Below, piece after piece: positions 1,794-24,348 of a DNA stretch of 64,000 nt. Source of the stretch: a bacterium. Lineage in GTDB: Bacteria > Myxococcota_A > Bradymonadia > UBA7976 > UBA1532. A program made the translations under genes and the position numbers. A model generated the notes under the pieces. The model made no database searches. It was given only the letters and a program-made list of their open reading frames with translations, and had not been told where the DNA came from. Numbering within the stretch: the first letter of the stretch is position 1; every line of letters starts with the position of its first letter. The DNA lies in assembly GCA_030427205.1 (NCBI GenBank), contig JAUHXC010000011.1, positions 44,016 through 108,015 on the forward strand, read 5' to 3'.

Positions 1794-3356
1794 TCAGCGG
1801 CGCGCGGTGGCGCTGGCCTGGGTCTCGCGGATGACCATCACCTTGATCTGCCCCGGATAGATGCACTCGTCTTCGATGCGATAGGCGATGTCGTTGGCCA
1901 GCCGGGCCGCGGCCAGATCGTCCACCCGGCGGGGGTCGACCACCACCCGCACCTCGCGCCCGCCCGAGATCACGTAAGTATTGCGAATGCCCCGCGGCTT
2001 GAAGTCGGCGCAGATGGTCTGCACGTCTTCGACCCGCTGCGAGTACGACTCCACCGTCTCGCGGCGCGCGCCGGGCCGGGCGCCGCTGAGCGCGTCGGCC
2101 GCCGCCACCAGATGGGCCAGCGGCGACGACGGCTTCTCGTCGTTGTGGTGCGCCGCGATGGGGTGCACGATCTCGGGGGCCTCGCCGTGCGCCGTCGCAA
2201 AAGCGGCGCCGCTCACCGCGTGGCTGCCCACCGCCTCGGTCTCGGCCCACAGCACCTTGCCGATGTCGTGCATCAGCGCCGCCCGATGCGCGGTGCGGAT
2301 GTCGAGCCCCATGTCGCTGGCCATCATGCCGCACAGGTGCGCGGTCTCGATGGCGTGCTGCCACTGATTCTGGGTGTAGCTGGTGCGGTAGAGCAGCTTG
2401 CCCACCAGGAACTGGATCTCGCCGTGCACGTTGCGCAGCTTGAGGATCCGGGTGGCCCGCTTGCCGGCGTCGCGGCAGATCTTCTCCAGGTCGACCCGGG
2501 CTTTCTCGACGTACTGCTCGACCAGATCGATCGACGGGTCCTTGCGTCGCGCCAGCCGCTCGTACGCCAGGCGGCCGATCTCCCGGGTGTAGGGGTCGGG
2601 CGCCTGCATGTAGAAGCCGTCCTTGCCCTCCTGGGGCACGAACTCCACCTCGCTGAACTCGGCGATGCCGGCGAGGATCGCCCGACCATCGGCCAGAAAC
2701 CGCTCGCGGGCGGCCTTGTTGCGCGGCAGATCGACCGTCGCGATGAGCCGGTCGGCGGGCTTGGCCACCCCGTAGCGGTACATCGCGAGGTCCATCAGCC
2801 GGCGCGCCTCGACCTCGGCCCGGCTCTGCACCCGCTCCTCGTAGGCCCGGGCGGCCTTCTCGGCGGCGACGCGGGCCTCGCCGGTGAGCGCGTCGCCGAT
2901 GCGCTCGCTCATCGCGTCCCGGCTCTCCCCGGCGACCTCTTCGATGCGCTCGACGATGCGCTGCTCGAGCCCGTCGATCTCGTCGCGCAGCGCGTTGAGG
3001 TGTTGCCGGCGCGTCTTCATCTCGGCGGCCCGCTCGCCCAGCGCCCGATCGCGGGCCTCGGCGCTGTCATTGCGTCGACCGGCCGCGGCCTCCATCTGCT
3101 GAAGGCGGGCCTCGTCTTCGGCGAGCTGCTCGGTCTCGCTCGCGAGCTGGCGCTGCAGCCGATCGCGCAGCCGCTCGGCCCGTTCGAGGGCCGCCTCGCG
3201 GGCCACCTCGGCTTCGCCGCCGATCGCTTCGAGCTCGATCCGACCCTGGCGTCGCGCGCTCGAGACCGCCGCGTCCCGGCGACGGCGCGCGCCGATGGCC
3301 ATGGCCCCGGCGACGGTTCCGGCGGCAGCGACGGCGGTGGCAGCGGCGATGATCAT
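1794..3356 (-). CDS. rny: ribonuclease Y (N-terminal TM, KH domain, HD domain)
   Basis: Start taken at 'MIIAAATAVAAAGTVAGAMAI', an N-terminal membrane anchor. A long coiled-coil region follows, then a KH-like segment and the HD-domain motif 'AALMHDIGK'. The C-terminal region 'IKVMVIRETQ' is typical of RNase Y. The ORF's first 20 codons upstream (to 3416) are probably not translated. Confidence 0.85.
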   Translation of the reverse strand: MIIAAATAVAAAGTVAGAMAIGARRRRDAAVSSARRQGRIELEAIGGEAEVAREAALERAERLRDRLQRQLASETEQLAEDEARLQQMEAAAGRRNDSAEARDRALGERAAEMKTRRQHLNALRDEIDGLEQRIVERIEEVAGESRDAMSERIGDALTGEARVAAEKAARAYEERVQSRAEVEARRLMDLAMYRYGVAKPADRLIATVDLPRNKAARERFLADGRAILAGIAEFSEVEFVPQEGKDGFYMQAPDPYTREIGRLAYERLARRKDPSIDLVEQYVEKARVDLEKICRDAGKRATRILKLRNVHGEIQFLVGKLLYRTSYTQNQWQHAIETAHLCGMMASDMGLDIRTAHRAALMHDIGKVLWAETEAVGSHAVSGAAFATAHGEAPEIVHPIAAHHNDEKPSSPLAHLVAAADALSGARPGARRETVESYSQRVEDVQTICADFKPRGIRNTYVISGGREVRVVVDPRRVDDLAAARLANDIAYRIEDECIYPGQIKVMVIRETQASATARR

Positions 3357-3481
3357 GGATGTCTCCCGGGGCGGGCGCGTATGGCGCGGTTTCGAATGAT
3401 GACCACCTGCTGCCATCGTTTCAAGCGGCGGGCCGATCCCCAGAGCGATCGGGGCCTCTCGCCGCTGACCGGGCAGCCCGC

Positions 3482-4207
3482 TCAGCGGCGACGGCGTCGG
3501 CGTTTGGCCTCGGGCAGCCGGCGCAGGGCCGCCAGATCCTCCAGGCCGGCGAGCGTCGCCCGCAGATAACCCGGCGACAGCGTCTCGACCAGCGCCAGGG
3601 TGCGGGCGGCGAGCGCCTCGGGGTTGTACGGGCCGACGTCGTCGGCGACCCGATCGCTGGCCCGCGCGACGACCAGCGCGCTGCGGGCGTGATCCGCCGC
3701 CTCGCGGAACAGCGCCCGGGCGAGCTGATCGCCCACGGTGCGCAGCTCGGGCAGGTCGGCTGCGGCTTCGGCGGTCGCGGTGGCGGCGTGCACCCGGGCC
3801 CGCAGCGCCGGCTGAAGGGTGAGGCCGCGGCTGCGGGCCTGTCGCGCCAACCGCACCACCCGGGCCCGGGCGGCGTCGGCGTCGTCGGTGCGCGCCCGCC
3901 GCAGCGCCCGCGGGGCCTCGCGGCGCACGAAGCCGTAGTCTCCGCTGGCGAACGCCCGGGCGAAGTCACCGTCGGGATCGGCGTCGGCCGCGTCGAGGGT
4001 GGCCAGGGTCGCCCGCGCCTCCGCCCGGGCCGAGGCGAACGCCGCTTCGAAGCCCGACAGCCGCTCGGCGGCCCGTCGACGCAGGTGGTCGCCGGCCACG
4101 CCGTCGAGCCCCTCGGCCCGCTCGAGCAGCGCCTCGATGAAGCGAAAACCGGGCCCGTCGAAGACCTCCGCTCCACCGGCGCGCAATGTCTCGAGCCTGC
4201 GCTTCAA
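3482..4207 (-). CDS. DUF2894-like Ala/Arg-rich hypothetical protein; third gene of the MotA/MotB-like module
   Basis: In frame with the over-long ORF 3482..4918. There is no ATG. A TTG at 4207-4205 sits 6 nt downstream of AGGAGG and overlaps the TGA stop of the upstream MotB-like gene (TTGA overlap). The 242-aa product 'MKRRLETLRAGGAEVFDGPGFRFIEALLERAEG...' is helical. It resembles DUF2894 proteins found with DUF802 and OmpA genes. Confidence 0.5.
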   Translation of the reverse strand: MKRRLETLRAGGAEVFDGPGFRFIEALLERAEGLDGVAGDHLRRRAAERLSGFEAAFASARAEARATLATLDAADADPDGDFARAFASGDYGFVRREAPRALRRARTDDADAARARVVRLARQARSRGLTLQPALRARVHAATATAEAAADLPELRTVGDQLARALFREAADHARSALVVARASDRVADDVGPYNPEALAARTLALVETLSPGYLRATLAGLEDLAALRRLPEAKRRRRRR

Positions 4208-4893
4208 GGGCTGCCTCCTTGCGTCGGCGGCGGCAGGGTCGGCGCCCGCATGCCGCTCTGGGGCACCGGCACGATCTCCACCCGCCGATTGCGGGCCCGG
4301 CCGGCCTCGTCGGTATTGGGGGCCGCCGGGTGATGCGATCCGAAGCCGGCGGCGAAGAGCCGCTGCGGGGGCACCTCGTGGCTCAACAGCCCGCGGACCA
4401 CCGTCAGCGCCCGCTCGGTGGAGAGCTGCCAGTTGTCGGCGAAGCGTGGCCGATCGCCGTGGATCACCAGATCGTCGGTGAACCCTCCCACCATCACCAT
4501 CTGCTGCTGCTCGGTCAACCACCGGGCCAGCGGCGGGCCGATCTCGGCGAGCAGCGCGGCGCCCTCGGGGCGCAGGTCGGCGGAGTACAGGTCGAAGAGC
4601 ACGCTGCCGGCGATGGCGATGCGGCCGTCTTCCAGAGTGATGCGCCCCGCGGCCAGGGGCGCCGCCAGGGCCGCCTCCAGCGCCGCGAGCCGCTCGTCGG
4701 CCGCCTCGCGGGCCGTCTGCGCCTCGACCCGGGCCTCCTGCTCGGCTTCGAGCGAGGCGGCCAGGTCGACCTGGAACCACACCGCGACGACGAAGAAGAG
4801 CACGAACAGGCCCATCAGCCCGGCCATCAGGTCGCCGAAGACCAGCCAGACATGGCCGGTCTCGCCGGACACCTCGCGCTCGTCGAGCATCAT
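4204..4893 (-). CDS. MotB/ZorB-like stator subunit with OmpA-like peptidoglycan-binding domain
   Basis: 229 aa. A single N-terminal TM carries a conserved Asp, 'HVWLVFGDLMAGLMGLFVLFFVV', compared with MotB 'ADFMTAMMAFFLVMW'. The C-terminal OmpA-like domain ends in 'NRRVEIV'. Its ATG overlaps the upstream gene's TGA (ATGA). Confidence 0.85.
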   Translation of the reverse strand: MMLDEREVSGETGHVWLVFGDLMAGLMGLFVLFFVVAVWFQVDLAASLEAEQEARVEAQTAREAADERLAALEAALAAPLAAGRITLEDGRIAIAGSVLFDLYSADLRPEGAALLAEIGPPLARWLTEQQQMVMVGGFTDDLVIHGDRPRFADNWQLSTERALTVVRGLLSHEVPPQRLFAAGFGSHHPAAPNTDEAGRARNRRVEIVPVPQSGMRAPTLPPPTQGGSP

Positions 4894-7800
4894 CCGGCGA
4901 CCCCCGCCGCGCCCTCACCGCGCAGGGCGCGCAGCTCGGTGAACAGCTCCCGCTGGAAGCGCAGCGCGTCGCCGAAGACCTCGCGGGTCTGGTCGAGGTA
5001 CTCGCCGACGAGGCGCCCCGCCTGCTCCTCGCCGGTATTGCCCAGGCTGCCCTCCAGCTCGGCGAGCGTGGTCATCCAGCGCTCGTTGGCCTCGCGGTAG
5101 CCGTCCACCGCCTCGGCGAGCATCTGGGCCACCGCCGACAGCTCGGCGCCGCCGGCGGTGAGCAGATCGCCGCCCGCGCGCACGCCCAGGCCGACCTCGG
5201 TCAGCCGGGCGGTCAGCGCCTCGACGTGGGTCGACAGCGTGTCGGCCAGGGCGGCGTGGCTCTGGGAGCGGGCCTCGGCCATGCGCCCCTCGAACACCGC
5301 CAGCCGCTCGGTCTGCCGGTCGAGCGCCTCTTCGACCTTGCCCGCCAAGGCCGCGAGCCGGGCGCCGGCGGCCTCCTCGCTGGCCTCGGCGGCGGCGAAG
5401 CGGGCCTCGGTGGCGGCGTCCATGCGCTCGACGGTCTGCGACATGCCGGCGAGCAGCGCGTCGAGGCGCGCGTCGCGGGCCGCGTCAACGGCGGTGCGGG
5501 CCGCGAGCTGCGCCCCGGCCTGCTCGACCAGCTTCGCCGCGGCGGCCGGCGCCTCGGCGGCGGTGCGGGCGACCGCTTCGAGCGGCGCGGTCAGGCGCTC
5601 GCCCATCGCGCCGAGGTGCTCTTCGAGGGCGTGGTCGAGGCGGCCGAGCACCGCGGCGGCTTCGGTGGCCCGGGCGGTCTGCGCGGCGGCGAAGGCCTCG
5701 GCCTGCTCGGCCAGCGCGGCGCCCAGGCGCACGGTGGTCGCCTCGAGCCGCTCGGCGGTCTGCACGTCCAGATCGGCCAGCGCCGCCTGCACCGCCTCGA
5801 AGCGGGCCCCGATGCTCGCCGACTGACGGGCGCCCTCGACCGCCGCCGCCTCCAGGTGCAGGCGGGCGGCGTCGACCGCCTCGCCGAACGCGTGCAGCCG
5901 GGCGGCGTCGGCCTCGGCGGTGCCCAGCAGGCGGGCCTCGACGCGGCCCACCAGATCGTCGAGCCGGGCCGACAGCGCCTCGGCGCGCGCCTGCTCGGCC
6001 TCGGTCAGCCCGGTCACCGCTGTCTGCACGTCAGCCACCAGCGCCGTCAGCGGCGCGCCGATGGCCTGCAGGCCGTCCCGGGTCGCGTCCACGGCCCGAT
6101 CGAGCCGAACCAGCACCCCCTCCAGCCGCGCGTGGGCCGCGGCCTCCAGGCGGCCCGCCAGGGCCTCCAGCGCCGATTCCCGCGCCGCGTCGACCTCGGC
6201 GGCGTGCGCCCGGCGCTGCCCGTCGAGCGCCTCGAACCGCGCCGCGAGCCCTTCGAAGGCCGACCGCTGGCGCTCGGCGAGCGCGTCGGCCTGCGACCGG
6301 CGGGTGCGCTCGCTCTCCGCGAGCTGCTCGGCCAGCGCCGCCAGCGCCGCCCGCTGGGCGTCGACGGCCGCCTGGGTGCGGGACCCGCGCTCGACGTCCA
6401 GCGCTTCGAGCCGCCCGATCAGCGCGTCGAGGGCGTCTCGCTGGGCGCCGTCGGCTTCGGCCGCCGCGGTCGCGATGCGCTCACCCAACGCGGCGAGCGC
6501 AGCGCGATCGTCGGCCGAGAGCTGCGCCTGACGCTCGGCGCGCGCCTGCTCGGCCGCCTCGAGTCGGCTGGCCAGCGCCCCGAGCGCGGCCTGCTGCGCG
6601 TCCACCGCCGCCTCGATGCGCGCCGCCTGCGCCGCGCCGCGGGTATCGGCGGCGGCGCGCCGCTTGTCTTCGGCCTCTATCATGCGCCCGGCGAGCCCCT
6701 CGATCGCCGCCCGCTGGGTCTCGGCGGCCTCGATCAGCGCGTCGGCGCGGCGGGTATCGGCAGCGTCGATGCGCGTCGCCAGCGCTTCGAGCGCCGCGCT
6801 CTGACGGGCGGCCGCGGCCTCGGCCTCGGCCTGACGGCGGGCGTCGGCCTCTTCGACGCGCCGCACGGTCTGCGACCACTCGGCGGCCCGGGACACGGCC
6901 CGCGCCTGCTCGGCGCCTTCGAGCTGTTCGAGCAGCGCCGCGTGGGCCGCCTCGACGTGGGCCCGCAGCGAGGTGTCGGCCTCGGCCTGCCGCCGCACCA
7001 GCCCGTCGAGCCGGTCGAGCAGGTCGGCGTGGCGTCCGTGCGCCGCGGCATCGCGCGCGGTGGCGTGCTCCGCCCGGCGGCTCTCGGCGGCCTCGACGGT
7101 GCTCAGCATCGCCTCGACGTGGGCCACCAGCATGCCGTCGGCTTCGGCCCGCTGGCGGGCGGCGTCGTTGAGCCGGTCGAGCAGGGCGGCGTGGCGCTCG
7201 GCGTCGGCCGCCGCGCGGTCGGCGTCGCGGGCGGCGAGGGCGTCGGTCAGCGCGACGTGGCGTGCGTCCAACGCGGCGATGCGCGACGCCTCGGACGCGG
7301 CCAGCGTATCGGCGAGCCCGCCGATGTGCGCTTCGAGCGCCTCGGCCCGCAGCGCCTCGGCGGCGGCGCGGGTCTCTTCGGATTCGGTCACCGCCGACAG
7401 CACCCGGTCGAAGCCGGCGCCCAGCGCGTCCCGTCGGCGGGCCTCCTCGGCGGTCAGGGCCGCGGTCAGCCGCTGCACCTCCTCGCGGGTCGCCTGCCGG
7501 CCGGCCTCTTCGGCGGCGCGGCGGGCGTCGGCGTCGGCCGACAACATCTCGGTCCACTCGGCGGCGTGGCGCCCCACCGCGGCCTCGGCCCGCTCGGCGG
7601 CCTGCCCGGCCAACGCCGCGACCGCGGTCGACGTCTGCTCGACGCTCGCCGCGAAGCCCGCCGACAGCGCCTCGCGGATGTCGGCCGCAGCCCGGCCGAA
7701 CGCCGCCGCCGCGGCCTCGGCGGCTTTCTCCTGCGCGCCGACGGCCCGCTCGCCGACCGCCGTCTGGGCGTCGACGAGGCTCGACTCGAGCTGCTCGATG

Positions 7801-8504
7801 CGCGCCACGGCCCGGCCGAGCGCCTCGGCGGCGGCAGGCAGCGCCTCGCCCTGGCGCACCAACGCTTCGAGGACCGCCAGCTGACGCCCGGCGGGGGTCG
7901 TGGCCTCCAGGTTCGCGCCGGCCCATGAGGCCAGCCGCCGTCGGGCGCGGCGCTCGGCCCGCCGGACCCAGACCGCCGCCAGCCCCAGGGCCGCCGAGGC
8001 GGCGACGCCGGCGACCGAGGTGCCGAACGCCCGGGTGAGCCCGTCGATGGGGCCGGCCAGCCCCTGGCGCAGCGCGGTGACGTCGGCGGCGCCCAGCATC
8101 GCGCCGCGGGCGCCGGACAGCGTCTCGACCAGCCCGAGGAAGGTGCCGAAGAGCCCCAGCATCACCAACAAGCCCACCAGATAGGGCGTGAAGCCGACCG
8201 GCGCCCCGGGCGGGGTCTGGCCGGCGCGCACGGCGGCCACGAGCGCGCGCACGGCGGGCGAGGCGTCGTCGAGGCGGGTCTCGAAGTCGTCGGCGTCGCG
8301 GGCGGGCAACGTCGGGATCTCGTCGAGCAGCCGGCCGGCGGCGCTGGCCCGACGCCACAGCTCGACCGCGCCGACCCACAGCCCGAGGGTGATGCCGCCG
8401 AGGACCACCAGCGCCAGCGCGTCCTCTCCCCGATAGAACGCCGCGGCTCGGGCGATGAGCGCGGTGCCGAGTACGGTGAGCAGGGCGACGGCCAGACGCG
8501 GCAT
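4890..8504 (-). CDS. MotA/TolQ/ExbB-like proton-channel protein with a ~950-aa cytoplasmic coiled-coil tail (ZorA-like / DUF802-like)
   Basis: Start at ATG 8504, where GGAGGA lies 4-5 nt upstream ('MPRLAVALLTVLG...'). Four predicted TMs. TM3 carries the MotA/TolQ signature 'LVMLGLFGTFLGLVETLSGA'. A roughly 950-aa Ala/Glu/Arg/Asp-rich, internally repetitive alpha-helical region follows. The ORF track extends to 8585, but there is no RBS there. Confidence 0.8.
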   Translation of the reverse strand: MPRLAVALLTVLGTALIARAAAFYRGEDALALVVLGGITLGLWVGAVELWRRASAAGRLLDEIPTLPARDADDFETRLDDASPAVRALVAAVRAGQTPPGAPVGFTPYLVGLLVMLGLFGTFLGLVETLSGARGAMLGAADVTALRQGLAGPIDGLTRAFGTSVAGVAASAALGLAAVWVRRAERRARRRLASWAGANLEATTPAGRQLAVLEALVRQGEALPAAAEALGRAVARIEQLESSLVDAQTAVGERAVGAQEKAAEAAAAAFGRAAADIREALSAGFAASVEQTSTAVAALAGQAAERAEAAVGRHAAEWTEMLSADADARRAAEEAGRQATREEVQRLTAALTAEEARRRDALGAGFDRVLSAVTESEETRAAAEALRAEALEAHIGGLADTLAASEASRIAALDARHVALTDALAARDADRAAADAERHAALLDRLNDAARQRAEADGMLVAHVEAMLSTVEAAESRRAEHATARDAAAHGRHADLLDRLDGLVRRQAEADTSLRAHVEAAHAALLEQLEGAEQARAVSRAAEWSQTVRRVEEADARRQAEAEAAAARQSAALEALATRIDAADTRRADALIEAAETQRAAIEGLAGRMIEAEDKRRAAADTRGAAQAARIEAAVDAQQAALGALASRLEAAEQARAERQAQLSADDRAALAALGERIATAAAEADGAQRDALDALIGRLEALDVERGSRTQAAVDAQRAALAALAEQLAESERTRRSQADALAERQRSAFEGLAARFEALDGQRRAHAAEVDAARESALEALAGRLEAAAHARLEGVLVRLDRAVDATRDGLQAIGAPLTALVADVQTAVTGLTEAEQARAEALSARLDDLVGRVEARLLGTAEADAARLHAFGEAVDAARLHLEAAAVEGARQSASIGARFEAVQAALADLDVQTAERLEATTVRLGAALAEQAEAFAAAQTARATEAAAVLGRLDHALEEHLGAMGERLTAPLEAVARTAAEAPAAAAKLVEQAGAQLAARTAVDAARDARLDALLAGMSQTVERMDAATEARFAAAEASEEAAGARLAALAGKVEEALDRQTERLAVFEGRMAEARSQSHAALADTLSTHVEALTARLTEVGLGVRAGGDLLTAGGAELSAVAQMLAEAVDGYREANERWMTTLAELEGSLGNTGEEQAGRLVGEYLDQTREVFGDALRFQRELFTELRALRGEGAAGVAG

Positions 8505-8630
8505 CCGATCCTCCGGGGGCTGGTGCAGATACGGCAGCCGGTCATCGCCGACCGATCGACCGCTGTCAAGGGTCACGGGGGGCAAAAAACGTCACTGGTC
8601 CGGGCAGATGTATCGGTCGACCATGCGCCG

Positions 8631-20703: not shown

Positions 20704-21933
20704 GTGGCTGTATCGGCCACGCGGGAGGTCGTGGTGTCCGAGGAAGAGCGCGAAGAGAGCGAGCCGCCGCGGCTCCCGATCTCGCAGATCATGCTGAAGG
20801 ACTTTTTGTCTTATGGGCCGGGCGAGTACACCTTCGACCTGAAGGCGCTCAACGTGCTCATCGGCCCGAATGGGTCGGGCAAGACCAACTTGATCGAGGC
20901 GTTCGAGGTGCTGCGGGCCGTGCCGAAGGACGTGCTGCGGCCGTTTCGGCGCGGCGGGGGGTTCGGCCGATGGGTCTTCAACGGCGCATCCGGTGAGGCT
21001 GTCCCGGCACTCGGTTTGCTCACTGCTGGCGGTACGTCGTCGCTTCGCTATCACATCGAGCTGACCGAGTCCGAGTGGGGGAGCGCGCAGGTTCGCAGCG
21101 AGTCTGTACTGCCCGGCCAGCCCTACTCGACGCCCGACGAGTTCTTCTTGGAGCGCGAGCTGTATGGGCCGGCCAGGATCATGGGCCGGGGGTGGGGCGG
21201 GGACAACGAGCGCGACGTCAAAGTGGACGACGCAACGTCGGTCCTGGCTCAGGTCAAAGACGAAATGGCCTACCCCCAGCTGGCCCGGATCAGCAGACTC
21301 ATGGAGTCGATCCAGATCTTCCGGTCATGGGCGCTGGGTCCCAATGCACCAACCCGCGGCGCTTGCCCGTCCGACGTACGTCAGGACCGGCTGGAGGAAG
21401 ACTTCTCCAACCTGCCGATGCGCCTTCAGGCTCTGCGACGCATGCCTGCCTTGAAACGGCGACTCCAGGCGTTGCTGAGCGATCTGGCACCCGGCTTCGA
21501 CGACTTCGAGGTCTTCCCCGAAGGTGGGACGCTGCACCTCTACCTGACCGAAGGCGACAACAACATCTCGGCCCAGCGGCTCTCCGACGGCACGTTGCGC
21601 TATCTGTGCCTGCTCGCCATCCTGCTCGACCCACCCGAGGGCGGGGTGATCATCATCGAAGAGCCCGAGTTGGGGCTGCATCCCGACATGCTCGGCACCC
21701 TGCGCGATCTGCTCGTCGAGGCCAGCGAGACCGCCCAGATCATCATCACGACCCACTCGACGATGCTGGTCGACGCCTTCACCGAGCACCCCGAGGCCAT
21801 CGTCGTCTGCGAGAAGCCCGAGGGCAGCACCGAGCTGCGGCGTCTGACCCGCGAGGAGGTCGACGCGTGGCGTGAATTCGGCTCGCTGGGTCAGCTCTGG
21901 ATCTCGGGCCAGTTCGGGGGCACGCGCTGGTGA
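20704..21933 (+). CDS. ABC/SMC-like AAA ATPase (AAA_21/OLD-AbiLi-like)
   Basis: Walker A 'LIGPNGSGKTNLIEAF'. Signature/Q-loop-like 'LSDGTLRYLCLLAILL'. Walker B 'GVIIIEEPELGLHPDM'. H-loop 'IIITTHS'. Start uncertain: ATG 20704, or GTG at 20734 after GGGAGG. The stop overlaps the start of the next gene (GTGA). Confidence 0.8.
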   Translation: MAVSATREVVVSEEEREESEPPRLPISQIMLKDFLSYGPGEYTFDLKALNVLIGPNGSGKTNLIEAFEVLRAVPKDVLRPFRRGGGFGRWVFNGASGEAVPALGLLTAGGTSSLRYHIELTESEWGSAQVRSESVLPGQPYSTPDEFFLERELYGPARIMGRGWGGDNERDVKVDDATSVLAQVKDEMAYPQLARISRLMESIQIFRSWALGPNAPTRGACPSDVRQDRLEEDFSNLPMRLQALRRMPALKRRLQALLSDLAPGFDDFEVFPEGGTLHLYLTEGDNNISAQRLSDGTLRYLCLLAILLDPPEGGVIIIEEPELGLHPDMLGTLRDLLVEASETAQIIITTHSTMLVDAFTEHPEAIVVCEKPEGSTELRRLTREEVDAWREFGSLGQLWISGQFGGTRW

Positions 21934-22532
21934 AGCGCCGAAAGAGCAAGCTGTACGTCGAGGGCGGCGGCGACAGGGATCTCGACCGCGCGTGTCGAGA
22001 GGCTTTCGCCAAGCTCTTCCGATCGGCGGGCATCCGCCGTCCACCGGGCGTCGTCCCGTGCGGACCGCGCAGTCTGGCCTTCCGCCGGTTCTGCGTGGCC
22101 CTGACGCGAGGCGACCACGATCCCTGGCTGCTCGTCGACGCGGAGAGCCCGATCGCGGAGGGGGTGACGCCCTGGAGGCACGTCGCCGCCCGCGAGGAAG
22201 ACAAGTGGACCTGCCCCGCGCACGCCACCGATGAGCACCTGCACTTCATGTCGGTCGTCATGGAGACGTGGCTGGTCGCCGATCCCGACGCTCTCGAGAA
22301 GGTATTCGGTGCCGCGCTCGATCGCGGTCGGTTGCCGAAGAACCCGGCGAGCCTCGAAGGGCGCCCCAGAGATCGGGTCGAAGACGATCTGAAGCGAGCC
22401 ACGGCAGGCACGAAGAGCGGCCCTTACGGCAAAGGCACTCACAGCTTCAAGGTGCTGGCCCATGTCGATCCGACCAAGCTCGACGCGCTGCCTTGGGCCC
22501 GCCGATTCCTCGACGCAATGCGCGGCGGCTGA
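21930..22532 (+). CDS. DUF4276/RloB-like TOPRIM-like protein (partner of the ATPase)
   Basis: 200 aa with a GTG start overlapping the ATPase stop. N-terminal 'KLYVEGGGDRDLD' and later 'LLVDAESP' fit the TOPRIM-like Glu plus DxD pattern of DUF4276/RloB proteins that pair with AAA_21 ATPases. Confidence 0.6.
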   Translation: MKRRKSKLYVEGGGDRDLDRACREAFAKLFRSAGIRRPPGVVPCGPRSLAFRRFCVALTRGDHDPWLLVDAESPIAEGVTPWRHVAAREEDKWTCPAHATDEHLHFMSVVMETWLVADPDALEKVFGAALDRGRLPKNPASLEGRPRDRVEDDLKRATAGTKSGPYGKGTHSFKVLAHVDPTKLDALPWARRFLDAMRGG

Positions 22533-22602
22533 CGTCGACCTGCGCCGCATCCTGTCGCCGGCTCGTGTATCCTCTGCCGCCGAGCAACCCCCGGAGCCCG
22601 TG

Positions 22603-23652
22603 ATGTCCCTGCGAAACGCCCTGCAAGCGCGCCTCGACGCCGACGCTGCCGGCCTGTGCCGGCTGGCCGCCGACTTCGTGCTCGACCGCCCCGTGGCCGC
22701 CTTCATCAACCCCGCGCGGGTCGACTTCTGGCTGGACCACGCCTTCGACGAGGGCGCGGCCCACGCCGCCGTCGAGGCCCACGTGCAGGGCTTCGTCGAG
22801 CGGGAGCAGGCCCGAGCCAAAGCCCGCGGCGATACGGTGCGCGACTGGGTCTCCGCCGAAGCCCAGGCCGAGCTGCGGGCGTTCGCCGCGCGGCCGGTGG
22901 TCTTCGAGCGCGAGATGATCAAACGCTGGGTCGATCAGGACGCGGTGCGCTCGATCCTGCAGTCGATCGTGCGCGAGACGCTCGACCGCTTCGTCGACAC
23001 CGTCAAGCCGGGCGGCAGCGGCGGCGGGCTCGTCGGCGCGGTCGGCCGGCGCACGATCGGCTTCGCCAGCCGCGCCGGGCGGGGGCTGCTCGGCGGCCTC
23101 GGCGGGCAGTTCGAAGACCTGCTGCGCGGCGCGGTGAGCAGCTTCGTCGGCGGCTCGATGGGGCTGATGGTCGACCGGATGGTGGACATCCTCATGCAGC
23201 CCGAGACCCAGCGGCAGCTCGGCCGGCTGCGGCTGTCGACCTATGAGCGGGCGATGGCCAGCGAGACGGTGGAGATCTTCGACCGGGCGGCCGACGAGCC
23301 GGCCCTCGAGGATCTGCTCGAGGCGCTGCCCGGGCTCATCGCCCACAACCTCGACCGCCCCGAGGTGCGCGAGATCCTGCGGGCCGAGGTCACCCGCTGG
23401 GTCGCGGCCGAAGGCGAGCGGCCGATCCGCAGCTTCCTGCCCGCCGAGCACGTCGAGGCGCTGCGCGACGAGCTGGCGGCGCTGGTCGAGCCGATGGTGG
23501 TCGCGTTCGTGGCCACCGACAGCTTCGCGCTGTGGGCCGACGGCCTCGAAGGCTGGGCCGAGCAGACGACGTCGTCGTTCGCGGTGCCCGAGGACGACGA
23601 GCCGGACGACGAGCCGGACGAGCCGGACGACGAGCCCGAGCCGGGCGCCTGA
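22603..23652 (+). CDS. hypothetical protein (349 aa), first gene of a coupled three-gene cassette
   Basis: ATG 22603 has GGAG 6 nt upstream ('MSLRNALQARLDADAAG...'). Balanced composition. The acidic C-terminus 'EDDEPDDEPDEPDDEPEPGA' is encoded by short repeats. The gene ends 3 nt before the next gene. The ORF track's 47 upstream codons lack an RBS. Confidence 0.6.
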   Translation: MSLRNALQARLDADAAGLCRLAADFVLDRPVAAFINPARVDFWLDHAFDEGAAHAAVEAHVQGFVEREQARAKARGDTVRDWVSAEAQAELRAFAARPVVFEREMIKRWVDQDAVRSILQSIVRETLDRFVDTVKPGGSGGGLVGAVGRRTIGFASRAGRGLLGGLGGQFEDLLRGAVSSFVGGSMGLMVDRMVDILMQPETQRQLGRLRLSTYERAMASETVEIFDRAADEPALEDLLEALPGLIAHNLDRPEVREILRAEVTRWVAAEGERPIRSFLPAEHVEALRDELAALVEPMVVAFVATDSFALWADGLEGWAEQTTSSFAVPEDDEPDDEPDEPDDEPEPGA

Positions 23653-23655
23653 TCC

Positions 23656-24348
23656 ATGAGCCTGCCCGCCCCCGATCCGACCCCGCTCGCCGGGCGGGGG
23701 CTGTGTCTGGTGCTCGCGCCGGCCGATCGGCAGACGCTCGCGCCGCTGCTCGAGCTGGTGGGCAGCACGCAGGTCGCTCTGCGTATCCTGGCGCCGGGGC
23801 CCGATGACGACTGGCTGGCGCAGGTCTCCGAGCCCATCGACGGGGCCGCGGTGCAGCGGGTGGTGCTGTTCTGGAGCGCCGCCGCCGCCGGCCTGCCGCG
23901 CATCGAGCGCCTGCGGGGCGAGACCGCCTCGCTGACCGGCGATCGGCTGGCGGTGCTGGCCCTCGATCGCACGCCCATCCCGCCGATGCTGGCCGGCGCC
24001 GCTGCGCCGCTGCTCGACCGCTGCCTGCGCGCGCTCTCGGAGCACGTCGCCGCCGAGTCGGTGCCGCACGCGGTGGTCGCCCGGCTGACGTCGCTCGAGC
24101 GCATCCGCCGGATCGGCGCCGTCGCGGCGACGGTCAGCGGGCTGCTGCTGGCGGCGGTCCTGCTGCTGTGGCGGGTGCCGAGCCCGCTGGCCGATCCGAC
24201 CGATCGGCTGGTGATGCGGGTGGTGCTGCTGATCATGATTCCCGGTGTGGCGGGGGTCTTCGCTATGCTGTGGGCCCGGCTCGATCGCCGGTTCCTGGCC
24301 CACCGGGCCGGCAGCTACCTGATCGACCGCGCGTTGGAGGAGCGATGA
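23656..24348 (+). CDS. hypothetical membrane protein (230 aa)
   Basis: Starts 4 nt after the previous stop. Two C-terminal TMs: 'IGAVAATVSGLLLAAVLLLW' and 'VVLLIMIPGVAGVFAMLWA'. The stop overlaps the ATG of the Uma2 gene (ATGA). Confidence 0.6.
   Translation: MSLPAPDPTPLAGRGLCLVLAPADRQTLAPLLELVGSTQVALRILAPGPDDDWLAQVSEPIDGAAVQRVVLFWSAAAAGLPRIERLRGETASLTGDRLAVLALDRTPIPPMLAGAAAPLLDRCLRALSEHVAAESVPHAVVARLTSLERIRRIGAVAATVSGLLLAAVLLLWRVPSPLADPTDRLVMRVVLLIMIPGVAGVFAMLWARLDRRFLAHRAGSYLIDRALEER

What the first reader, a model, noticed from the sequence alone, without database searches (positions are those of the whole stretch)
3482..4207. Third gene of the stator module starts with TTG in a TTGA overlap with the MotB-like stop
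The only in-frame initiation codon with a Shine-Dalgarno is a TTG, with AGGAGG 6 nt upstream. Gene callers that require ATG or GTG would miss it. They would either fuse this gene into the 478-aa ORF 3482..4918 or drop it. Because the protein is tightly coupled to the MotAB-like pair, it is the best candidate for the module's unknown effector or adaptor.
Basis: seen in the sequence. Interest (0 to 1): 0.55.

Follow-up and report, generated by a model that had tools for sequence, protein, structure and literature searches.

The report
TTG-started DUF2894 gene of Zorya III
The flagged stretch is a real 241-codon gene that starts at a TTG overlapping the stop of the MotB-like gene, but it belongs to the already named DUF2894 subunit family of the type III Zorya anti-phage system, so the start codon is ordinary and only the reduced gene set of this locus is mildly unusual.

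Summary
On the minus strand, TTG 4207..4205 overlaps the stop of the MotB-like gene (TGA 4206..4204). AGGAGG (4219..4214) lies 6 nt upstream. The frame holds no ATG. Third-position GC switches frame at about 4200.

In 15 of 19 related loci the same junction is an NTGA overlap (ATGA or GTGA). The N is the wobble base of ZorB's last proline codon. dN/dS in this frame is 0.07-0.22.

The protein is 241 aa, not 242. It belongs to DUF2894 (Pfam 61.6 bits; PADLOC 'ZorF3' 7.7e-18). The two genes upstream are ZorA3-like (4e-71) and ZorB3-like (1.9e-75).

The module is therefore a type III Zorya-like system (Payne 2021), not an unknown stator module.

The model is all-alpha (pLDDT 88) with no enzyme fold or solved relative, and carries a family-wide polybasic C-terminus. 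An adaptor role fits better than a catalytic effector role; this step is inferred.

The locus differs from canonical type III in three ways:
- No DUF3348 gene is found in the 64 kb.
- The ZorA tail is about twice the canonical length.
- The DUF2400/TIGR02757 gene that follows DUF2894 in most Myxococcota relatives is absent.

Interest is low to moderate.

The parts
3482..4207 (-). DUF2894-family gene. It is called ZorG in Payne 2021 and 'ZorF3' in PADLOC-DB. 241 aa, TTG start, TGA stop.
   Evidence: Pfam PF11445: 1.9e-16, 61.6 bits against a cut-off of 25, residues 5-230 on profile positions 1-182. PADLOC PDLC00652: 7.7e-18. GC by codon position 0.84/0.59/0.90. dN/dS 0.07-0.16 against four close relatives. 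29 homologues align from residue 1.
4204..4207 (-). TTGA start/stop overlap: TTG of the DUF2894 gene and TGA of zorB.
   Evidence: Read from the sequence. The homologous junction is ATGA or GTGA in 14 other loci.
4214..4219 (-). Shine-Dalgarno AGGAGG, 6 nt upstream of the TTG, inside the 3' end of zorB.
   Evidence: SD-like GAGGAG, AGGAG or AAGGAGG sits at the same place in L001, L002, L014, L015 and L016.
4204..4893 (-). zorB-like gene, 229 aa. It has a MotB-type transmembrane helix with Asp21 (FGDLM) and an OmpA peptidoglycan-binding domain.
   Evidence: PADLOC ZorB3 1.9e-75. Pfam OmpA 1.1e-14. NCBIfam PRK09040 at 250.5 bits against a cut-off of 194.
4890..8504 (-). zorA-like gene, 1204 aa from ATG 8504. 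The mechanical ORF runs to TTG 8585. It has a MotA-like membrane head and an acidic helical tail of about 950 aa.
   Evidence: PADLOC ZorA3 4e-71, with matches starting at residues 26-35 of the 1231-aa ORF. GGAGGA lies 4 nt before ATG 8504. Tail net charge -53. No Pfam hit, including no DUF802.
4890..4893 (-). ATGA overlap between the zorA stop and the zorB start.
   Evidence: Read from the sequence.
3460..3490 (-). G+C-rich stem-loop spanning the DUF2894 stop codon. It is a probable operon-end structure and has no U-tract.
   Evidence: RNA fold of 3395..3490 on the minus strand: -50.6 kcal/mol, z = -2.56. A promoter-like site for the next gene lies at 3424..3396.

Best explanation
Minus-strand 3482..4207 encodes the soluble DUF2894-family subunit of a three-gene Zorya type III-like operon, zorA (4890..8504), zorB (4204..4893) and DUF2894.

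Shown here:
- The gene is translated from UUG 4207.
- An AGGAGG lies 6 nt upstream, and the start overlaps the zorB stop by 4 nt. This arrangement couples its translation to zorB, as zorB is coupled to zorA by ATGA.
- The first base of the start codon is the wobble base of ZorB's last proline codon (CCN). It therefore drifts among A, G and T in relatives without changing ZorB.

Inferred by homology with type I Zorya (Hu et al. 2024, PMC11946911):
- ZorA5B2 is a proton-driven, peptidoglycan-anchored rotary sensor of envelope breach.
- Its long cytoplasmic tail recruits soluble partners.

Inferred here:
- DUF2894 is a non-catalytic, two-module helical adaptor or regulator that docks on the acidic ZorA tail.
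- Its conserved polybasic C-terminus contacts either the tail or nucleic acid.
- It links the motor to variable fourth components: DUF3348 in Proteobacteria, and a DUF2400/TIGR02757 protein in most Myxococcota relatives.
- Both fourth components are missing from this window. This copy either works with DUF2894 alone or uses a partner encoded elsewhere.
For: Start site:
- Sequence and SD.
- GC3 frame switch at about 4200.
- N-termini of 29 homologues coincide. Residues 8-31 are conserved, with G12, D17 and P19 invariant.
- NTGA overlap in 15 of 19 loci: ATGA in L001, L006, L010, L015, L021 and (unannotated) L020; GTGA in L002, L005, L007, L008, L011, L014, L016/17 and L022.
- dN/dS 0.07-0.22 in this frame.

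Family:
- Pfam DUF2894 above the gathering score.
- PADLOC ZorA3, ZorB3 and ZorF3 hits.
- Canonical Ralstonia and Azoarcus loci are annotated DUF3348-DUF802-OmpA-DUF2894, with an overlapping zorB/DUF2894 junction.
- A four-gene type III system gave phage protection in E. coli (PMC8565338).

Adaptor role:
- AF2 model with pLDDT 88 and ten helices.
- At least 5 K/R in the last 15 residues in 137 of 175 family members.
- DUF2894 net charge is +9 and the ZorA tail is -53.
- DUF2894 is kept in every architecture seen, while DUF3348 and DUF2400 come and go.
Against: - No experimental evidence for the start codon exists here.
- The window's own genome is not in the gene-position index, so no public annotation could be compared.
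- TTG occurs only in this locus among the 19 examined.
- The defence role rests on one heterologous test of a four-gene system from Stenotrophomonas. This locus lacks DUF3348, and its flanks look like housekeeping genes: a CpxP-like gene, an RNase Y-like gene, a BNR protein and glutaminyl cyclase.
- The binding of DUF2894 to the ZorA tail and the role of the basic tail were not computed or measured.
- pTM is only 0.51, so the relative placement of the two halves is uncertain.
Confidence: 0.7

Rival explanations
1. The gene starts elsewhere. Candidates are TTG 4186, GTG 4099, or an upstream GTG (4522 or 4918) giving a long protein that overlaps zorB.
For: All are in-frame NTG codons in an ORF that is open from 4918. 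A weak GAGG lies about 11 nt before GTG 4099.
Against: The upstream part of the frame has GC3 of 0.50 against 0.93 for zorB. Starts at 4186 or 4099 would delete residues 1-7 or 1-36, including the conserved L8, R9, G12, D17 and P19. Orthologues place ATG or GTG exactly at the homologous position.
Confidence: 0.04
2. The module is not primarily antiviral. ZorA3-ZorB3-DUF2894 would be a chromosomal envelope-linked motor with a housekeeping or stress-sensing role, and DUF2894 its cytoplasmic output subunit.
For: ZorB3 homologues are present on 135 Ralstonia megaplasmid records, which fits a near-core gene. The flanks in the window and in canonical loci are metabolic or housekeeping genes. The genes are under purifying selection. 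The only nearby defence-type gene is a HEC-01A ATPase 12 kb away.
Against: A type III system reduced plaquing of several phages in E. coli (PMC8565338). The upstream flanks differ between Myxococcota loci, so the module moves as a unit as defence cassettes do. Accessory-gene turnover is typical of defence systems.
Confidence: 0.2
3. DUF2894 is itself the effector. For example, a DNA- or membrane-binding protein whose poly-Arg tail sequesters incoming DNA or perturbs the membrane once the motor releases or activates it.
For: It is the only accessory gene left in this locus. The conserved polybasic C-terminus is seen in 137 of 175 members.
Against: There is no catalytic or known DNA-binding fold. 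In the one tested type III system DUF3348 was also present. Most Myxococcota relatives carry a translationally coupled DUF2400 protein that is weakly HhH-GPD-like, which is a better effector candidate.
Confidence: 0.12
4. The locus is a decaying remnant. After losing DUF3348 and DUF2400, the three remaining genes are non-functional, and the TTG is a weakened start on the way to loss.
For: TTG is the weakest of the three canonical starts and is unique to this locus. Both known fourth genes are absent. A related contig (L015) has lost most of zorB.
Against: All three ORFs are intact, with GC3 of 0.90-0.95. The lowest dN/dS (0.07) is for the window against its closest relative. The SD here is a perfect AGGAGG, stronger than in relatives. 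L016/L017 also lack DUF2400 immediately downstream and are intact.
Confidence: 0.08

Closest known systems
DUF2894 subunit of Zorya type III. It is ZorG in Payne et al. 2021 (NAR, PMC8565338) and is labelled ZorF3 in PADLOC-DB v2.
   Same: Pfam PF11445 member. About 240 aa and all-alpha. Encoded directly after zorB on the same strand with an overlapping start. Basic C-terminus.
   Different: No DUF3348 partner in the 64-kb window. The host is a high-GC Myxococcota-like genome rather than Burkholderiales or Xanthomonadales. No tblastn match to any plasmid or chromid copy at E <= 1e-3. TTG start.
Canonical type III locus DUF3348-DUF802(ZorA3)-OmpA(ZorB3)-DUF2894, for example Ralstonia wenshanensis p56D2 and Azoarcus sp. 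KH32C pAZKH.
   Same: Gene order A-B-DUF2894. ZorB about 47-52% identical.
   Different: ZorA here is 1204 aa against 736-768 aa, and has no DUF802 Pfam hit. The first gene, DUF3348, is missing.
Zorya type I soluble partners ZorC and ZorD (Hu et al. 2024, PMC11946911).
   Same: Cytoplasmic proteins encoded downstream of zorAB. The working model of recruitment by the rotating ZorA tail is borrowed from them.
   Different: No sequence or fold similarity was detected. ZorD is a nuclease/helicase, while DUF2894 shows no enzyme fold.
Translational coupling by 4-nt NTGA start/stop overlaps in bacterial operons (general knowledge).
   Same: The start codon overlaps the upstream stop, and the SD is embedded in the upstream coding sequence.
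   Different: Nothing unusual. Only the use of UUG instead of AUG or GUG.

Membership tests
Pfam DUF2894 (PF11445) | Whole-protein score above Pfam's gathering threshold, with near full-length profile coverage. | tested here: met
   61.6 bits against a cut-off of 25. Residues 5-230 lie on profile positions 1-182 of 185.
Zorya type III | ZorA3: a MotA-like membrane head plus a long cytoplasmic helical tail. | tested here: met
   PADLOC ZorA3 models score 4e-71 and 5.8e-71. The tail is about 950 aa and rich in Ala, Glu and Arg.
Zorya type III | ZorB3: a MotB-like transmembrane helix with a conserved Asp, plus an OmpA-type peptidoglycan-binding domain. | tested here: met
   PADLOC ZorB3 1.9e-75. 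Pfam OmpA. NCBIfam PRK09040 above its cut-off. Asp21 in FGDLMAG is read from the translation.
Zorya type III | A DUF2894 protein encoded next to zorB. | tested here: met
   There is a 4-nt overlap with zorB.
Zorya type III | A DUF3348 protein flanking zorA (canonical order DUF3348-zorA-zorB-DUF2894). | tested here: not met
   The gene upstream of zorA is a divergent BNR-repeat gene. An HMM was built from two canonical and two Myxococcota DUF3348 proteins. It finds L020 and L022 at 1e-33 to 1e-44, but nothing in the six-frame translation of the window (best E 0.11). Pfam and PADLOC scans of mid-size ORFs were negative.
Zorya type III | Protection against phage infection. | not testable with these tools
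   Shown only for the four-gene Stenotrophomonas nitritireducens system in E. coli (PMC8565338).
Flagellar/Exb/Tol-type 5:2 stator units | A5B2 stoichiometry and ion-driven rotation. | not testable with these tools
   Inferred from homology to ZorAB types I and II, whose structures are solved (PMC11946911, PMC11890865).

The most novel reading that the evidence does not exclude
Myxococcota carry a distinct Zorya lineage. In it, DUF2894 is the one indispensable soluble partner of an extra-long-tailed ZorAB motor. The usual DUF3348 subunit has been replaced by, or supplemented with, a translationally coupled DUF2400/TIGR02757 protein that is weakly HhH-GPD-like and has four conserved cysteines, acting as a DNA-directed effector. 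This window would represent a minimal three-gene form that still works, which would make DUF2894 both adaptor and output.
Probability: 0.15. Interest if true: 0.55.

Novelty: new variant of a known kind. Interest (0 to 1): 0.3.

Why it matters
For annotation, the result fixes the start and frame of one gene and removes a spurious 478-aa ORF.

For biology, type III is the least understood Zorya type, and no structure or mechanism exists for DUF2894 or DUF3348. A natural locus that keeps only ZorA, ZorB and DUF2894, next to relatives that add DUF2400 or DUF3348, gives a ready-made comparative series. That series can be used to ask which soluble partner is essential and which carries the effector activity.

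The start-codon point itself is routine.

Tried and rejected
- Fused 478-aa ORF 3482..4918: rejected on GC3 (0.50 upstream against 0.93 for zorB) and on homologue lengths.
- Opposite-strand ORF 3359..4333(+) and minus-frame ORF 3421..4176: their codon-position GC patterns are not coding-like, and no homologues support them.
- Exact-protein look-up of the window's DUF2894 and ZorB proteins, to see how public annotation called the start: neither is on record.
- tblastn of DUF2894 against plasmids: no match. Canonical loci were reached through ZorB instead.
- Search for a solved structure or fold relative: only generic helical bundles.
- Search for DUF3348 in the window by PADLOC, Pfam, tblastn and a custom HMM: negative.
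- Search for DUF2400 in the window by tblastn: negative.
- RNase Y-like gene downstream as a possible fourth component: rejected. It matches TIGR03319 over its full length (339 bits, below the cut-off of 454). It is preceded by hairpins and a promoter-like site, and it is not adjacent to DUF2894 in any relative.
- Literature: no paper in the library gives a mechanism for DUF2894, DUF3348 or DUF2400.
- A fused ZorA-tip/DUF2894 AlphaFold run was considered and not attempted.

Full report
**The observation**

The finding lies on the minus strand. Read 5'->3', the junction is GACGCA-AGGAGG-CAGCCC-TTGA-AGCGCAGG.

- TTG occupies 4207..4205.
- The TGA that ends the upstream 229-aa OmpA/MotB-like ORF occupies 4206..4204.
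- AGGAGG occupies 4219..4214, leaving a 6-nt spacer.

The frame contains no ATG at all. The other in-frame GTG/TTG codons are 4186, 4099, 3928 and further downstream, and none has a properly spaced SD. AGGAGG is not enriched in the window: 33 copies against 33.8 expected on both strands. One copy placed 4-10 nt before a given codon therefore has a chance probability of about 2e-3.

**Frame and strand**

The window is 72% G+C, so third-position GC is a sharp frame indicator.

| Stretch and frame | GC by codon position |
|---|---|
| Proposed gene, 3482..4207 | 0.84 / 0.59 / 0.90 |
| Same frame continued upstream, 4208..4918 | third position 0.50 |
| zorB frame over 4208..4918 | third position 0.93 |

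In a sliding plot the switch occurs at about 4200. The mechanical 478-aa ORF 3482..4918 is therefore an open-frame artefact. The competing ORFs on either strand do not have a coding pattern.

**What the gene is**

- The protein matches Pfam DUF2894 at 61.6 bits against a cut-off of 25. Residue 5 aligns to profile position 1.
- It matches the PADLOC models described as 'DUF2894 domain' and labelled ZorF3, at 7.7e-18.
- The two upstream genes match ZorB3 (1.9e-75) and ZorA3 (4e-71).
- The ZorB-like protein also exceeds the NCBIfam PRK09040 cut-off. It carries the MotB-type Asp in FGDLMAG.
- ZorA most likely starts at ATG 8504, behind a GGAGGA. Its stop overlaps the zorB start as ATGA (4893..4890).

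The 'stator module' is therefore a type III Zorya-like operon. Payne et al. defined type III as zorAB flanked by a DUF3348 gene and a DUF2894 gene. They showed that a four-gene system from Stenotrophomonas nitritireducens reduces plaquing in E. coli, and they proposed the two DUF proteins as regulators of ZorAB (PMC8565338).

The letters F and G are used inconsistently. The 2021 text calls DUF2894 ZorG, and PADLOC-DB calls it ZorF3. Hu et al. write both zorFABG and zorGABF.

**Test of the start by comparison**

A database search gave 29 homologues at 41-94% identity. Their predicted N-termini coincide with the TTG position. Residues 8-31 are strongly conserved, and G12, D17 and P19 are invariant.

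I collected related loci with DNA from three sources:
- Thirteen loci from Myxococcota and Bradymonadia genomes, of which twelve include the zorB/DUF2894 junction.
- Seven contig loci found through exact-protein look-ups. L016 and L017 carry the same protein, P0005, so they count as one locus.
- Two canonical betaproteobacterial loci; only the Azoarcus junction (L019) could be scored, because the Ralstonia start (L018) is ambiguous.

With the window these make 19 distinct loci with a scorable junction.

Junctions across the 19 loci:

| Junction type | Loci |
|---|---|
| ATGA overlap | L001, L006, L010, L015, L021, and unannotated in Sorangium L020 |
| GTGA overlap | L002, L005, L007, L008, L011, L014, L016/17, L022 |
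| TTGA overlap | the window only |
| 16-nt overlap | L003 |
| 8-nt overlap | L019 (Azoarcus) |
| 5-8 nt gap | L004, L009 |
| TAATG | L012 |

The NTGA overlap is thus present in 15 of 19 distinct loci.

The four closest relatives (87-94% identical) have GTGA or ATGA, with GAGGAG or AGGAG 6-8 nt upstream. The variable first base is the wobble base of ZorB's final proline codon: CCT here, CCA or CCG elsewhere. It can therefore change freely without altering ZorB.

dN/dS in this frame is 0.07-0.16 between the window and its relatives, and 0.15-0.22 among the relatives.

**The protein**

AlphaFold2 on the 30-sequence alignment gives mean pLDDT 88 and pTM 0.51, with ten helices and no strands.

- Foldseek gives nothing below E = 1.
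- A profile search of PDB sequences gives nothing below E = 0.26.
- A full HMMER scan finds 1590 cluster representatives at E <= 1e-3. Nearly all are stand-alone proteins of about 210-290 aa. Many match as two stretches, roughly profile positions 3-130 and 160-240, split by a variable linker.
- 137 of 175 retrieved members have at least 5 Lys/Arg in their last 15 residues. Here the protein ends KRRRRRR.
- The protein has net charge +9, while the ZorA tail has -53.
- There is no signal peptide or hydrophobic segment, judged by inspecting the sequence.

**Mechanism**

Shown: the three genes are chained by 4-nt overlaps, with SDs embedded in the preceding gene. A stem-loop spans the last stop codon, and a promoter-like site precedes the next gene. 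Together these give a compact, translationally coupled operon.

Inferred from type I work: ZorA5B2 is a proton-driven motor. It anchors to peptidoglycan when the envelope is breached, and the rotating tail recruits soluble partners. Deleting the tail tip abolishes recruitment (PMC11946911).

Inferred here: DUF2894 is the soluble partner that docks on the tail. The conserved last ~150 residues of ZorA are 55-63% identical across loci whose tail middles are unalignable. They are the obvious docking site. With no enzyme-like fold, an adaptor or regulator role is more likely than a catalytic one. The polybasic end could bind the acidic tail or nucleic acid. None of this was tested.

**How this locus differs from canonical type III**

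1. DUF3348 is absent.
   - The gene upstream of zorA is a divergently transcribed BNR-repeat gene.
   - A custom HMM recovers divergent DUF3348-like genes upstream of zorA in L008, L020 and L022, and a displaced copy in L006. It finds nothing in the window's six frames.
2. ZorA is longer. It is 1204 aa against 736-768 aa in Ralstonia and Azoarcus, and it has no DUF802 Pfam hit. Among the Myxococcota loci ZorA ranges from 734 to about 1230 aa.
3. The DUF2400/TIGR02757 gene is absent.
   - In 13 related loci this gene directly follows DUF2894. In seven of them the junction is an ATGA or GTGA overlap.
   - The gene is missing from the whole window. It is also missing immediately downstream in L016/17.
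   - DUF2400 proteins give sub-threshold HhH-GPD hits in 5 of 10 members, best E 0.014. They carry four conserved C-terminal cysteines.
   - This hints at a DNA-glycosylase-like Fe-S protein, but it is only a hint.

DUF2894 is therefore the one accessory gene kept in every architecture seen.

**Caveats and rivals**

- The defence function is borrowed from a four-gene system in another phylum.
- ZorB3 homologues sit on 135 Ralstonia megaplasmid records, and the flanks look like housekeeping genes. A non-defence role therefore cannot be dismissed; I put it at about 0.2.
- Decay of the locus is unlikely, given intact genes, strong purifying selection and a perfect SD.
From my own knowledge, standard callers accept TTG, and the homologous start was called in all related contigs.

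**Verdict**

The module, however, is a known kind, type III Zorya, and the protein belongs to a named family of unknown mechanism. The mildly new element is the reduced, DUF3348-less architecture and its DUF2400-bearing relatives. Interest is 0.3.

Noticed in passing
L001:9700-10560; L003:10720-11586; L006:10708-11487; L008:10717-11574; L021:8852-9700; L022:8744-9634 and others: A DUF2400/TIGR02757 gene directly follows the DUF2894 gene in 13 Myxococcota/Bradymonadia loci. In seven of them the junction is an ATGA or GTGA overlap. It gives weak HhH-GPD hits (5 of 10 members, best E 0.014) and has four conserved C-terminal cysteines. It is absent from this window. It may be an unreported fourth Zorya III-like component.
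   Followed up: partly
L008:5967-6779; L020:2888-3724; L022:3158-4009; L006:2531-3514: Divergent DUF3348-like genes are present in only 4 of the related Myxococcota loci. They are below the Pfam gathering score, and Pfam reports nothing for two of them. They lie upstream of zorA in three loci. In L006 the copy is displaced by 3.8 kb, with an inserted 726-aa gene between.
   Followed up: partly
window 4890-8504 (-): The ZorA-like protein is 1204 aa, with a helical tail of about 950 aa rich in Ala, Glu and Arg (net charge -53) and no DUF802 Pfam hit. Tail length among relatives ranges from 734 to about 1230 aa. The last ~150 residues stay 55-63% identical.
   Followed up: partly
window 20704-21933 (+): An AAA_21/AAA_15 ATPase matches the PADLOC candidate defence protein HEC-01A at 1.4e-120. 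It lies 12 kb from the Zorya-like operon. The neighbouring ORFs 22462-23652 and 23656-24348 have no hits. An AAA_21 gene also lies near the Sorangium locus L020.
   Followed up: no
L020:7740-8010 (Sorangium cellulosum So ce26, CP012673.1): The annotated GTG start of the DUF2894 gene leaves a 243-nt 'gap' after zorB. An ATG overlapping the zorB stop (ATGA) opens the same frame through tandem PPQPG(S/L)(A/V) repeats. The annotated start is therefore probably too late.
   Followed up: partly
L015:1-300 (JGI Ga0104854_10407726): In this 92%-identical relative the zorA 3' end is followed after about 77 nt by the DUF2894 gene. Only a short remnant of zorB is left. This is either a deletion or an assembly artefact.
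   Followed up: no
contig of P0015 (JGI 3300072015; no DNA available): A Ppx-GppA family gene (305 aa) sits between zorB and the DUF2894 gene, with a 4-nt overlap to zorB. DUF2400 follows DUF2894. The P0015 sequence begins with L, suggesting another non-ATG start.
   Followed up: no
window 1794-3356 (-): The gene just downstream on the same strand is RNase Y-like. It matches TIGR03319 over its full length at 339 bits, below the cut-off of 454, and has RNase_Y_N and HD Pfam domains. No relative has it next to DUF2894, so the adjacency looks coincidental.
   Followed up: partly
window 8504-8628: The mechanical ORFs of zorA (TTG 8585) and of the divergent BNR-repeat gene (GTG 8523) overlap. The likely real starts are ATG 8504 with a GGAGGA SD, and about 8628 at a signal-peptide-like MRWSPIIAALLLL. 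These leave a divergent intergenic region of about 120 nt.
   Followed up: partly
literature (PMC8565338, PMC11946911) versus PADLOC-DB v2: The names ZorF and ZorG are swapped between sources. In the 2021 paper DUF2894 is ZorG, while the PADLOC HMMs label it ZorF3. Hu et al. 2024 write both zorFABG and zorGABF.
   Followed up: yes
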